Shown: in pieces, positions 37,242 to 40,200 of the stretch
How positions within the stretch are numbered: position 1 is the stretch's first letter
Layout: each line of letters begins with the position of its first letter
Assembly: GCF_057098645.1 (NCBI RefSeq)
Contig: NZ_CM169472.1
DNA length: 64,000 nt
Reading direction: 5' to 3' (one strand)
Made by a program: the position numbers

Positions 37242-40200
37242 TAAGAGAATTGCATGAGCAGTAACTTCAGACATCAACTATTGAGTCTGTCGTTACTGGT
37301 TGGTATAGCGGCCCCCTGGGCCGCTTTTGCTCAGGCACCAATCAGTAGTGTCGGCTCAGGCTCGGTCGAAGACCGCGTCACTCAACTTGAGCGTATTTCT
37401 AATGCTCACAGCCAGCTTTTAACCCAACTCCAGCAACAACTCTCTGATAATCAATCCGATATTGATTCCCTGCGTGGTCAGATTCAGGAAAATCAGTATC
37501 AACTGAATCAGGTCGTGGAGCGGCAAAAGCAGATCCTGTTGCAGATCGACAGCCTCAGCAGCGGTGGTGCAGCGGCGCAATCAACCAGCGGTGATCAAAG
37601 CGGTGCGGCGGCATCAACGACGCCGACAGCTGATGCTGGTACTGCGAATGCTGGCGCGCCGGTGAAAAGCGGTGATGCAAACACGGATTACAATGCAGCT
37701 ATTGCGCTGGTGCAGGATAAATCCCGCCAGGATGACGCAATGGTGGCATTTCAGAATTTCATCAAAAATTACCCTGATTCAACTTACCTGCCAAACGCCA
37801 ATTATTGGCTGGGTCAGTTAAACTACAACAAGGGTAAAAAAGATGATGCGGCGTACTATTTTGCTTCGGTAGTGAAAAACTATCCGAAGTCACCAAAGGC
37901 TGCAGATGCGATGTTTAAAGTCGGCGTCATCATGCAGGACAAAGGTGACACCGCAAAAGCGAAAGCCGTATACCAGCAGGTTATCAGTAAATACCCTGGT
38001 ACTGATGGCGCTAAACAGGCGCAAAAACGTCTGAACGCGATGTAATGCATAACACACGACCAGAAGTCGCATTATTTCTGGTCGTGTCGTGCGAATCATA
38101 AGCAGTTGAGTGATCTACATCGAAATTTTTGTTGCGCTCAAGTCTGAAATCAGTAATATATGCCGCCGTTGCCACGGGATATCAAACAAACCGAAAGCAA
38201 CGAAAAAGTGGGTCGTTAGCTCAGTTGGTAGAGCAGTTGACTTTTAATCAATTGGTCGCAGGTTCGAATCCTGCACGACCCACCACTAACCTAGTTAGTT
38301 GTAGTATCCAGCGTAGTATCGGGTGATTAGCTCAGCTGGGAGAGCACCTCCCTTACAAGGAGGGGGTCGGCGGTTCGATCCCGTCATCACCCACCACCGG
38401 GTCGTTAGCTCAGTTGGTAGAGCAGTTGACTTTTAATCAATTGGTCGCAGGTTCGAATCCTGCACGACCCACCACTAATTACGGTGGGTTCGGTGGAAGT
38501 AGTTTGTAGTATCCAGCGCAGTATCGGGTGATTAGCTCAGCTGGGAGAGCACCTCCCTTACAAGGAGGGGGTCGGCGGTTCGATCCCGTCATCACCCACC
38601 ACTCGGGTCGTTAGCTCAGTTGGTAGAGCAGTTGACTTTTAATCAATTGGTCGCAGGTTCGAATCCTGCACGACCCACCAATTTTAACATCAAACTCAGA
38701 TGTTAAGCGTGAAGGATAACGTTGCGCCAGCAACGGCCCGTAGGGCGAGCGAAGCGAGTCATCCTGCACGACCCACCAATCTTAAAGATTGGCCCCGAGT
38801 AAAAATCTTTCAGGTAACACCCGTATGGGTCGTTAGCTCAGTTGGTAGAGCAGTTGACTTTTAATCAATTGGTCGCAGGTTCGAATCCTGCACGACCCAC
38901 CATCCTGAATGATTAAAGCAGCATAATCCCGCAAGGGGTCGTTAGCTCAGTTGGTAGAGCAGTTGACTTTTAATCAATTGGTCGCAGGTTCGAATCCTGC
39001 ACGACCCACCAATGTAAAAAAGCGCCCTAAAGGCGCTTTTTTGCTATCTGCGATACTCAAAGATTCGAACCTGCAGCAGGTTTGAGTTGAGCGCAGCGAA
39101 ACAACGGAGCCGCTCGCGGCGACGGCCCGAAGGGCGAGCGAAGCGAGTCATCCTGCACGACCCACCCGTGTTAAAAGGCGCCCTAAAGGCGCTTTTTTGC
39201 TATTCAGGCATCTCTCAATTTCAATTCTTAACCCTGATGAAATACTCCGCGCTTGCTGCGTAAATAACTTTACGTCGGAGGAATAAGATGCAAAGAGTGG
39301 CATTCGGCATCTCATACGTAATTCGAGTGACTTTTCCCCACCATTCGACTATCTTGTTTAGCATATAAAACAAATTACACCGATAACAGCGAATATGACG
39401 CTTATGTCGGTTTTAACGTTAAGCCTGTAAAACGAGATGGTAAGATGAGCGTGATGTTTGATCCAGACACGGCGATTTATCCTTTCCCCCCGAAGCCGAC
39501 GCCGTTAAGCATTGATGAAAAAGCGTATTACCGCGAGAAGATAAAACGTCTGCTAAAAGAACGTAATGCGGTGATGGTTGCCCATTACTATACCGATCCC
39601 GAAATTCAACAACTGGCAGAAGAAACCGGTGGCTGTATTTCTGATTCTTTGGAAATGGCGCGCTTCGGTGCAAAGCATCCCGCTTCTACGTTGTTAGTCG
39701 CTGGGGTGAGATTTATGGGAGAAACCGCCAAAATTCTCAGTCCGGAAAAAACAATTCTGATGCCGACACTTCAGGCTGAGTGTTCACTGGATCTCGGCTG
39801 CCCTGTTGAAGAATTTAACGCATTTTGCGATGCCCATCCCGATCGTACTGTCGTCGTCTACGCCAACACTTCTGCTGCGGTAAAAGCGCGCGCAGATTGG
39901 GTGGTAACTTCAAGCATTGCCGTCGAACTTATTGATCATCTTGATAGTTTGGGTGAAAAAATCATCTGGGCACCCGACAAACATCTGGGGCGTTACGTGC
40001 AAAAACAGACGGGCGCAGACATTTTATGCTGGCAGGGTGCTTGCATTGTGCATGATGAATTTAAGACTCAGGCGTTAACCCGCTTGCAAGAAGAATACCC
40101 GGATGCTGCCATACTGGTGCATCCAGAATCACCACAAGCTATTGTCGATATGGCGGATGCGGTCGGTTCCACCAGTCAACTGATCGCTGCTGCAAAAACA

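What the first reader, a model, noticed from the sequence alone, without database searches (positions are those of the whole stretch)
38681..39205. Duplicated tRNA-Lys 3'-end fragments and a duplicated terminator in and after the lysT tRNA operon
Besides seven intact tRNA genes, two near-identical elements of about 45 bp (38733-38780 and 39123-39168) end in the exact last 17-18 nt of tRNA-Lys without a full tRNA upstream. The second is followed by a duplicate of the lysQ terminator hairpin (39173-39198). tRNA 3' ends are common integrase attachment cores, so these may be scars of past site-specific recombination at tRNA-Lys, or remnants of tRNA gene duplication and decay. They may well be present in K-12 too; I cannot confirm from memory.
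Basis: seen in the sequence. Interest (0 to 1): 0.35.

Follow-up and report, generated by a model that had tools for sequence, protein, structure and literature searches.

The report
Known tRNA-linked repeats in lysT operon
The two "tRNA-Lys end fragments" are real, but they belong to an already described family of E. coli spacer repeats (tRNA-linked repeats, Rfam RtT) that is also present in K-12, so the finding is ordinary.

Summary
The 17-mer ATCCTGCACGACCCACC occurs seven times in the window: five tRNA-Lys genes plus two orphan copies at 38761 and 39150. The second orphan copy is followed by a 93% copy of the lysQ terminator.

Neither element is novel, and I found no evidence that either is an integrase scar. 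Both match Rfam RtT (RF00391; 54.4 and 44.2 bits, cut-off 45). They fit the published tRNA-linked repeats (TLRs): 22 copies at 10 K-12 loci, each ending in 18-19 nt identical to the 3' end of the upstream tRNA or rRNA gene, with no known function.

K-12 has five TLRs in this operon and the window strain has two. The three missing ones are exact 98-100 bp indels bounded by the 18-nt repeat, which fits gain and loss by recombination between the repeats.

Each TLR carries a conserved three-hairpin core followed by the local tRNA's 3' end. In other gammaproteobacteria the same core sits behind eight kinds of tRNA and always ends in that tRNA's own 3' end.

A side observation: the core also lies inside MITE-like inverted repeats in Pseudomonas, Salinicola and others.

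Novelty: already known. Interest: low.

The parts
38605..38680 (+). lysY tRNA-Lys(UUU), the gene whose last 18 nt are copied at the end of the first repeat
   Evidence: ARAGORN; Rfam tRNA model, 79.2 bits
38681..38778 (+). TLR3: a short-type tRNA-linked repeat (RtT family) inside the 146-nt lysY-lysZ spacer
   Evidence: Rfam RF00391 hit at 38612-38778, 54.4 bits against a cut-off of 45. The orthologous copy is present in K-12 (L001 1224-1321). The RNA fold has z = -2.97.
38684..38706 (+). 5' hairpin of TLR3 (UAACAUCA / UGAUGUUA)
   Evidence: Centroid fold
38708..38717 (+). 5' strand of the closing helix (CGTGAAGGAT), which pairs 9 of 10 with 38761-38770
   Evidence: Fold; complementarity scan
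38720..38735 (+). Hairpin H1 of the core (CGTTGC-GCCA-GCAACG)
   Evidence: Fold. Across 72 unique copies the five variable H1 pairs closest to H2 are 83-94% paired, with 3-5 pair types each.
38736..38746 (+). Hairpin H2 of the core (GCCC-GTA-GGGC)
   Evidence: Fold; conserved motif
38749..38755 (+). Mini-hairpin H3 (GC-GAA-GC), followed by GAGTC at 38756-38760
   Evidence: The two H3 strands have matching length in 71 of 72 copies, and 70 of 72 are paired at the loop-closing position.
38761..38778 (+). 18-nt block identical to tRNA-Lys positions 59-76 (T-loop to CCA)
38936..39011 (+). lysQ tRNA-Lys(UUU), the last gene of the operon
39014..39044 (+). Terminator 1, a Rho-independent hairpin. In K-12 it marks the end of the >1100-nt lysT transcript.
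   Evidence: Fold of -19.1 kcal/mol, z = -5.5; PMC4176162
39048..39167 (+). TLR5: a long-type tRNA-linked repeat (RtT family) lying between the two terminator copies
   Evidence: Rfam RF00391 hit at 39042-39167, 44.2 bits. The K-12 ortholog scores 46.7 bits. PGAP annotates it 'RtT sRNA' in O104:H4.
39063..39086 (+). Palindrome built from tRNA-Lys T-arm sequence: GATTCGAACCTGC is the reverse complement of GCAGGTTCGAATC, followed by GCAGGTTTGAG
   Evidence: Read directly from the sequence; fold; comparison with the local tRNA
39105..39144 (+). Three-hairpin core of TLR5: H1 39105-39124, H2 39125-39135, H3 39138-39144
39150..39166 (+). 17-nt block identical to the tRNA-Lys 3' end. Position 39167 is C where the tRNA has A.
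39170..39200 (+). Terminator 2, a diverged copy of terminator 1
   Evidence: 54-nt direct repeat at 93% identity (D3); fold of -15.0 kcal/mol
38268..38285 (+). Empty site after lysT. K-12 has a 100-bp TLR insertion exactly here, bounded by the 18-mer.
   Evidence: Three-way alignment
38457..38474 (+). Empty site after lysW. K-12 and O104:H4 have a 98-bp TLR here.
38885..38902 (+). Empty site after lysZ. K-12 has a 99-bp TLR here.

Best explanation
Both elements are tRNA-linked repeats (TLRs), the repeat family that Rfam models as RtT RNA.

Anatomy. Each element has a conserved core of three short hairpins. H1 has a variable stem, H2 is GCCC-GNA-GGGC, and H3 has a C-GAA-G top; the core ends in GAGTMA. 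An exact copy of the upstream tRNA gene's sequence from the T-loop to CCA follows directly.

DNA level (inferred). The 18-nt block, and at the operon end the 54-nt block of tRNA end plus terminator, are direct repeats of the real tRNA 3' ends. Unequal recombination or slippage between these repeats adds or removes whole units. This would explain why the window strain has two TLRs where K-12 has five.

RNA level, TLR3. It is necessarily transcribed as part of the lysT polycistron. In K-12 the long TLR-containing spacers remain as 3' trailers after RNase P cuts at the next tRNA. They are then removed by exonucleases (shown experimentally in K-12). TLR3 probably folds into a compact multi-hairpin domain closed by pairing of its tRNA-like 3' block with CGTGAAGGAT (inferred).

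RNA level, TLR5. It lies beyond the main terminator and could be made only by read-through. Its practical effect is a tandem pair of terminators in front of nadA (inferred).

No trans-acting function is shown. I regard the elements as recombination-prone structured spacer repeats, most likely neutral or selfish.
For: - Family match: Rfam RtT hits at 38612-38778 (54.4 bits) and 39042-39167 (44.2 bits; cut-off 45). Five RtT hits lie in the K-12 operon. PGAP annotates an 'RtT sRNA' after lysQ in O104:H4.
- Literature: the TLR definition is 22 copies at 10 loci, 1-5 per locus, with an 18-19 bp 3' end identical to the upstream gene and no known function (PMC8144298).
- Exact 100, 98 and 99 bp indels bounded by the 18-mer separate the window, K-12 and O104:H4. 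The rest of the operon is 98.3% identical.
- TLR positions differ among Enterobacteriaceae. E. coli genomes hold 1-13 copies of the core, median 7.
- The 3' block follows the local tRNA for eight tRNA kinds.
- Hairpins H1 and H3 show many compensatory variants.
- Both TLR RNAs fold better than shuffled sequence, with z of -2.97 and -2.65.
- Transcript and processing data for the K-12 lysT operon come from PMC4176162.
Against: - TLR5 scores just below the Rfam cut-off.
- The Rfam alignment of TLR3 borrows part of lysY for the model's 5' end.
- The closing helix is clear for TLR3 (9 of 10 pairs) but absent in TLR5, and it is only moderately specific across the family.
- The paper's text reports no discrete spacer-derived RNA with the K-12 spacer probes. 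That argues against a stable RNA product but says nothing about a cis role.
- Strong conservation of the core across distant gammaproteobacteria is hard to reconcile with pure neutrality.
- The direction of each indel (loss or gain) is inferred, not shown.
Confidence: 0.85

Rival explanations
1. The elements are integrase attachment-site scars (attL/attR remnants, or a cis-mobilisable mini-element) left by islands that once integrated at tRNA-Lys.
For: The repeated block starts in the T-loop and runs to the 3' end, often with 2-5 nt of trailer. That is the geometry of one class of tRNA att sites (my own knowledge: Williams 2002, Reiter 1989). Direct repeats flank the inserted DNA.
Against: - Only 80-102 bp lie between the repeats, with no integrase gene or remnant.
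- The same core is attached to eight tRNA kinds and to 5S rRNA, which would need many different att specificities for one element family.
- The element is found in no real phage.
- tRNA-Lys att-like fragments on viral contigs start at the anticodon loop (48-49 nt) and lack the core (L005, L006, L008, L011).
- Units occur in tandem arrays of 2-4, which is unlike att scars.
Confidence: 0.03
2. The elements are decayed tRNA-Lys pseudogenes left from tandem gene duplication. The 3' end survives and the rest has drifted.
For: The 3' block is identical to the tRNA. Long TLRs also carry T-arm-derived sequence in direct and inverted orientation, for example an exact 19-nt inverted T-arm in L060 and 2-4 mismatches in others. 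The operon evolves by duplication of tRNA-Lys units.
Against: The core is not drifted tRNA. It is conserved from Enterobacterales to Marinobacterium (87.5-bit RtT hit), Salinisphaera and Thioalkalivibrio, behind unrelated tRNAs. It varies by compensatory hairpin changes rather than random decay. ARAGORN and the Rfam tRNA model give no signal.
Confidence: 0.05
3. The elements are functional small RNAs or RNA sponges released during tRNA processing. Models are the rrn-linked TLRs RrA/B/F, which bind Hfq and CsrA, and the 3'ETS-leuZ sponge.
For: Related TLRs downstream of 5S rRNA are processed and bind Hfq and CsrA in vitro (PMC8144298). An rtT RNA is released from the tyrT transcript (cited). 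The core is conserved with covariation, and the folds are better than shuffled sequence.
Against: The 19 tRNA-operon TLRs scored below 0.01 for CsrA binding. The rtT phenotype was later attributed to a neighbouring ORF. The paper's text mentions no spacer-only RNA species for the K-12 lysT spacer probes. Copy number varies freely between strains, from 2 to 5 in this operon and 1 to 13 per genome.
Confidence: 0.1
4. The core is a mobile, MITE-like module that spreads within gammaproteobacterial genomes and has been captured at, or targets, the T-loop and 3' end of stable-RNA genes.
For: The same module lies inside 22-57-nt inverted repeats, in several copies per genome and away from tRNAs, in Pseudomonas, Stutzerimonas, Salinicola, Tahibacter and two MAGs. 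In long TLRs the module sits between TTCGA and ATCC of a T-arm-like sequence. TLR units are present or absent at exact boundaries.
Against: No transposase, target-site duplication rule or transposition event was identified. The window TLRs have no terminal inverted repeats of their own. Presence/absence is equally well explained by recombination between the 18-nt repeats. Sharing a roughly 45-nt GC-rich module could reflect convergence on stable hairpins.
Confidence: 0.15

Closest known systems
tRNA-linked repeats (TLRs) of E. coli K-12 (Egan & Landy 1978; Rudd 1999; summarised in PMC8144298)
   Same: Location directly downstream of a tRNA gene in a tRNA operon. The 3' end has 17-18 nt identical to the upstream tRNA's 3' end. 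The core sequence is shared. K-12 has orthologous copies at the same two positions.
   Different: Nothing essential. The window strain has 2 rather than 5 copies in this operon, and its post-lysQ copy has diverged at the last base of the block and in the second terminator.
RtT RNA / rttR of the tyrT-tyrV operon (Rfam RF00391)
   Same: Same family by covariance-model match. Same architecture: 5' strand, T-arm-like palindrome, hairpin core, tRNA 3' block. Both occur as tandem units that include the trailer.
   Different: The tyrT copies score 133-138 bits and end in the tRNA-Tyr 3' end. The lysT copies score 44-60 bits, end in the tRNA-Lys 3' end, and the internal ones are a shorter type (about 100 nt) without the T-arm palindrome.
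RrA/RrB/RrF, the TLRs between the dual terminators of rrnA, rrnB and rrnD (PMC8144298)
   Same: The arrangement terminator 1 - TLR - terminator 2, as for TLR5. Hairpins H1 and H2 are shared (AACGTTGC-GAAG-GCAACG-GCCCGGAGGGT in rrnB). The 3' block equals the upstream gene's 3' end.
   Different: They are linked to 5S rRNA, carry GGA motifs and bind Hfq and CsrA. The rrnB copy is not detected by the Rfam RtT model at E<0.01.
tRNA-gene attachment sites of integrases (attL/attR duplications)
   Same: A direct repeat of a tRNA 3' segment that starts in a loop and runs past CCA.
   Different: No integrase or island is present. The intervening DNA is only 80-102 bp. The same core appears at many tRNA kinds. 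Genuine tRNA-Lys att-like fragments found here are 48-49 nt long and start at the anticodon loop.
Bacterial intergenic palindromic repeats and MITEs (REP/BIME, ERIC)
   Same: Short, GC-rich, hairpin-forming, multi-copy, variable between strains. Relatives of the core in other genera are embedded in terminal inverted repeats.
   Different: In E. coli the copies are tied to stable-RNA gene 3' ends and carry a target-derived 3' block. There is no sequence similarity to REP or ERIC, and no known mobilising enzyme.

Membership tests
tRNA-linked repeat (TLR) | Lies in a tRNA or rRNA operon, immediately downstream of a stable-RNA gene | tested here: met
   TLR3 starts at the base after lysY (38681). 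TLR5 follows lysQ and its terminator.
tRNA-linked repeat (TLR) | The last 18-19 bp are identical to the 3' end of the upstream gene | tested here: met
   TLR3 matches 18 of 18. TLR5 matches 17 of 18, with the terminal A changed to C. The K-12 TLR5 matches 18 of 18.
tRNA-linked repeat (TLR) | Sequence similarity to the other TLRs of E. coli | tested here: met
   Orthologous to K-12 copies at the same positions. The core is shared with the tyrT, valU and rrnB TLRs.
Rfam RtT (RF00391) | Covariance-model score at or above the gathering cut-off of 45 bits | tested here: inconclusive
   TLR3 scores 54.4 bits and passes, but its alignment uses part of lysY. TLR5 scores 44.2 bits, just below the cut-off. 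Its K-12 ortholog scores 46.7, and PGAP annotates it in other strains.
tRNA gene or scorable tRNA pseudogene | Cloverleaf detected by ARAGORN or by the Rfam tRNA model | tested here: not met
   Only the seven intact genes are called.
Integrase att-site scar | Repeats flank an island or its remnant containing an integrase gene or pseudogene | tested here: not met
   Only 80-102 bp of hairpin sequence lie between the repeats.
Integrase att-site scar | A phage or island attP carries the same core block | tested here: not met
   The 18-mer scan of viral contigs found tRNA genes, host-flank TLR arrays, and fragments starting at the anticodon loop. No real phage holds the TLR.
Rho-independent terminator (both hairpins) | GC-rich hairpin followed by a U tract | tested here: met
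   Folds of -19.1 and -15.0 kcal/mol, each followed by TTTTTTGC. The lysQ terminator is verified as the transcript end in K-12. The simple scan missed both.
MITE | Terminal inverted repeats and target-site duplication | tested here: not met
   The window TLRs have no terminal inverted repeats beyond the 9 of 10 closing helix of TLR3. Relatives in other genera do have them.

The most novel reading that the evidence does not exclude
The TLR/RtT core may be more than an enterobacterial tRNA-operon feature. It could be one form of a widespread three-hairpin module of Gammaproteobacteria: AAC-H1-GCCC(GNA)GGGC-GA-H3(CGAAG)-GAGTMA. In other lineages this module is carried inside MITE-like inverted repeats. 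It also resembles the Aggregatibacter sRNA family AaHKsRNA22. On this reading TLRs arise when the module is inserted or captured between TTCGA and ATCC of a tRNA T-arm copy. That would make the module a mobile element with a preference for stable-RNA gene 3' ends. Its C-GNA-G triloop hairpins hint at action as single-stranded DNA.
Probability: 0.2. Interest if true: 0.45.

Novelty: already known. Interest (0 to 1): 0.15.

Why it matters
For this window it matters little. The elements are a known and long-described repeat family of E. coli tRNA and rRNA operons.

Three points have some wider value.
- These repeats are usually left unannotated. The core lay under no annotated feature in all twelve sampled rows. 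First-pass readers will therefore keep rediscovering them.
- They are a source of exact 98-100 bp length polymorphism in a highly expressed tRNA operon.
- After more than 40 years the family still has no established function or origin.

The link to dispersed inverted-repeat elements in other gammaproteobacteria could make the question of origin testable.

Tried and rejected
- Junction counts. I tried to count E. coli genomes with and without each TLR using short junction-spanning BLAST queries. The tool joins neighbouring pieces into one place, so TLR-containing and TLR-free junctions both reach 100% coverage. The counts are unusable and I do not report them.
- Terminator scan. The consensus scan missed both + strand terminators, so I relied on folding instead.
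- Rudd 1999. The primary description of TLRs is not held in the library. The family definition is therefore taken second-hand from PMC8144298.
- Literature search for the core sequence. A full-text search for the core as a string found nothing.
- tRNA minihelix idea. I considered that all TLRs form an acceptor plus T-stem helix closing the core. It holds well for some copies: Arg 11-13 pairs, Tyr 9-11 (10-11 in two of the three Tyr copies), and TLR3 9 of 10. It fails for TLR5 and for Pro(CGG), and is only moderately specific against swapped 3' blocks. I do not claim it as a family feature.
- Tracking of the T-stem 5' strand. Whether the direct T-stem 5' strand upstream of the core follows the local tRNA is ambiguous, because AGGTTCGA is conserved family-wide.
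- Coding reading. K-12 annotates tpr inside the tyrT TLR. I set this aside because variation in the core is compensatory in hairpins and includes stem-length changes, which does not fit a protein.
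Full report
[quoted passage not shown] ARAGORN calls exactly seven tRNAs. The whole stretch is 100% identical to E. coli O145 strain RM9872.

- The 17-mer ATCCTGCACGACCCACC occurs seven times in 64 kb against 0.02 expected by chance. Five copies are tRNA-Lys 3' ends and two are orphan copies at 38761 and 39150.
- The two orphan copies sit at the ends of a 57-nt repeat, 38730-38786 against 39119-39175, at 91% identity.
- The tRNA end plus lysQ terminator (38994-39047) is repeated at 39150-39203 at 93% identity. 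Both hairpins fold stably.
- Two small corrections. The second fragment shares 17 nt, not 18, because it ends ...ACCC. The simple terminator scan misses both hairpins.

**What the elements are.** Rfam's RtT model (RF00391) matches both. The first match is 38612-38778 at 54.4 bits, above the 45-bit cut-off. The second is 39042-39167 at 44.2 bits, just below it. In K-12 MG1655 the same operon gives five RtT matches of 46.7-60 bits, one after each tRNA-Lys gene. NCBI's pipeline annotates the post-lysQ copy as 'RtT sRNA' in an O104:H4 genome.

The literature names these elements tRNA-linked repeats (TLRs). They were first seen in the tyrT operon in 1978 and catalogued by Rudd in 1999: 22 copies at ten K-12 loci, one to five per locus. 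[quoted passage not shown] The early rtT starvation phenotype was later attributed to a neighbouring ORF (PMC8144298). The finding is therefore a rediscovery of a known family.

**Anatomy.** I call the two copies TLR3 (38681-38778) and TLR5 (39048-39167), after their K-12 positions.

TLR3 folds (z = -2.97) into these parts:
- a 5' hairpin at 38684-38706;
- a closing helix in which CGTGAAGGAT (38708-38717) pairs 9 of 10 with the start of the tRNA-derived block (38761-38770);
- inside that helix, H1 (38720-38735), H2 GCCC-GTA-GGGC (38736-38746) and the mini-hairpin H3 GC-GAA-GC (38749-38755);
- a single-stranded ACCCACCA tail.

TLR5 is the longer type:
- a palindrome made of T-arm sequence (39063-39086);
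- the same three hairpins (39105-39144);
- GAGTC, and then the 17-nt block.

K-12 sequences confirm the same core in three other places. One is the tyrT/tyrV repeats (133-138 bits). Another is downstream of lysV, in a terminator-TLR-terminator unit nearly identical to the lysQ one. The third is between rrnB terminators T1 and T2, where the element ends in the 5S rRNA 3' end.

**Variation between strains.** A three-way alignment shows that the window lacks the K-12 TLRs after lysT, lysW and lysZ. Each absence is an exact gap of 100, 98 or 99 bp bounded by the 18-nt repeat. The rest of the operon is 98.3% identical. O104:H4 has the middle element but not the other two. TLR positions also differ among Citrobacter, Enterobacter, Kluyvera, Pluralibacter and Serratia. 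The core without its tRNA block is found in 5290 of 5426 complete E. coli genomes. It occurs at 1-13 places per genome (median 7), almost all chromosomal, and all twelve sampled rows were unannotated. The simplest mechanism is unequal recombination or slippage between the tRNA 3' ends and the TLR 3' blocks. At operon ends the 54-nt repeats of tRNA end plus terminator would serve the same role. This is inferred, not shown.

**Behaviour as RNA.** For K-12, Agrawal et al. (PMC4176162) showed several things.
- The cluster is one transcript of more than 1100 nt that ends at the lysQ terminator.
- RNase P removes the terminator and then works 3' to 5'.
- The long spacers, which are the TLR-containing ones, stay as 3' trailers of the Lys pre-tRNAs and are removed by RNase II and PNPase.
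- RNase E cuts within them only when RNase P is inactive.
- For the spacer probes, the text describes no spacer-only RNA species.

So TLR3 is certainly transcribed but is probably a transient trailer. TLR5 lies beyond the main terminator and can be made only by read-through, like RrB between rrnB T1 and T2. Its clearest consequence is a tandem terminator pair in front of nadA, which is my inference.

**Test of the integrase-scar idea.** The 18-mer was scanned against viral contigs and gave 13 loci.
- Seven are intact tRNA-Lys genes with no orphan copy. An eighth, L013, is an intact gene followed by a TLR unit.
- L013 and L012 are host flanks that carry TLR arrays with periods of 153-156 bp.
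- Four (L005, L006, L008, L011) are att-like tRNA-Lys fragments. These start at the anticodon loop (48-49 nt) and have no TLR core.

BLAST of both TLRs against 50,697 phage records found only Salmonella chromosomal contigs and unannotated fragments of 7.4 kb or less. The same core serves many different tRNAs, and only 80-102 bp lie between the repeats. Together this leaves the scar hypothesis with very little support.

**The family outside E. coli.** The core pattern GGCCCGNAGGGCGAG-N(0-3)-CGAAG was scanned against one genome per species. Wherever the core lies 53-286 nt downstream of a tRNA, the sequence after it nearly always equals the last 16-23 nt of that tRNA, often with 2-5 nt of trailer. 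Two copies are exceptions: one has decayed to an 11-nt match (L023) and one has lost the block (L081). The tRNAs are Lys(UUU), Lys(CUU), Pro(CGG), Pro(UGG), Gln(CUG), Ser(GGA), Arg(CCG) and Tyr(GUA). The hosts are Enterobacterales, Marinobacterium (RtT 87.5 bits), Salinisphaera, Thioalkalivibrio, Sedimenticola and several MAGs.

Among 72 unique copies:
- the five variable H1 pairs closest to H2 are 83-94% paired, with 3-5 pair types each, and exceed all 500 shuffles;
- the two H3 strands match in length in 71 of 72 copies, including stems of 1, 2, 3 and 4 extra pairs.

The search pattern constrained neither H1 nor the H3 3' strand, so this is real covariation. Relatedness among the copies inflates it to some extent.

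Several long TLRs also carry an inverted copy of the local T-arm. L060 has an exact 19-nt copy; others have 2-4 mismatches. A 5' strand complementary to the 3' block is clear in some copies and absent in others.

**Side observation.** In Pseudomonas, Stutzerimonas, Salinicola, Tahibacter, a Xanthomonadaceae MAG and another gammaproteobacterial MAG the same module is not next to tRNAs. It lies inside 22-57-nt inverted repeats, several copies per genome, and looks MITE-like. These copies match no Rfam family at useful scores. One gives a weak 13-bit hit to AaHKsRNA22, whose consensus visibly contains the same module. This suggests the TLR core may be a mobile or at least widely shared module. 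I could not establish mobility, and I do not know whether this link has been published.

**Verdict.** The integrase-scar reading is not supported. Novelty: already known. Interest: low.

Noticed in passing
L018, L019, L020, L037, L046, L054-L056, L106-L110, L114-L116, L121-L135 (coordinates): The three-hairpin TLR core also occurs away from tRNAs in Pseudomonas, Stutzerimonas, Salinicola, Tahibacter and two MAGs. There it sits inside 22-57-nt inverted repeats, with several copies per genome, and looks MITE-like.
   Followed up: partly
L130 681-759: One of these copies gives a weak (13-bit) Rfam hit to RF02902 AaHKsRNA22, an Aggregatibacter sRNA. That family's consensus, GAACG..CGGCCC..GGGGCGAGC..GCGAGUA, contains the same module. 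RtT and AaHKsRNA22 may therefore be related families that Rfam does not link.
   Followed up: no
window 38268-38285, 38457-38474, 38885-38902, compared with L001 and L002: The window strain lacks three TLRs that K-12 has, as exact 100, 98 and 99 bp indels bounded by the 18-nt repeat. O104:H4 has an intermediate set. This is a length polymorphism inside a highly expressed tRNA operon.
   Followed up: yes
L138 630-830 compared with L001 1654-1850: In K-12 the terminator-TLR-terminator unit after lysV (valU operon) is nearly identical to the one after lysQ, although the two loci are about 1.7 Mb apart. This points to segmental duplication or gene conversion.
   Followed up: partly
L136 208-420 (K-12 rrnB, 5S end through T1-T2): The stretch between rrnB terminators T1 and T2 contains a TLR with the same H1 and H2 (AACGTTGC-GAAG-GCAACG-GCCCGGAGGGT) and ends in the 5S rRNA 3' end. 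From my own knowledge, this segment is part of the rrnB T1T2 terminator cassette used in many cloning vectors.
   Followed up: partly
L137 1188-1277: K-12 annotates a 29-codon 'protamine-like protein' gene, tpr, entirely inside a tyrT TLR. The compensatory hairpin variation in the core makes a coding role doubtful.
   Followed up: no
window 38847-38987: A sub-threshold Rfam hit to YrlA (Y RNA-like; 44 bits against a 69-bit cut-off) spans the end of lysZ and the start of lysQ. It is most likely an artefact of two adjacent tRNA halves matching the tRNA-like domain of the model.
   Followed up: no
L005 1583, L006 10609, L008 10619, L011 4407: Viral contigs carry tRNA-Lys 3' fragments that begin in the anticodon loop (48-49 nt). 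These look like genuine att-type fragments and give a useful contrast to the 18-nt TLR block.
   Followed up: partly
L012 1-560, L017 (two units), L048 (two units): TLR units occur as tandem arrays of 2-3 units with periods of 153-168 bp behind tRNA-Lys or tRNA-Pro in other enterobacteria. Each unit carries its own terminator copy.
   Followed up: partly
window 37900-39500: The sigma-70 consensus scan found no promoter-like site, although the lysT operon promoter must lie upstream of 38210. According to PMC4176162, EcoCyc lists four transcription units for this cluster, whereas experiments show one.
   Followed up: no
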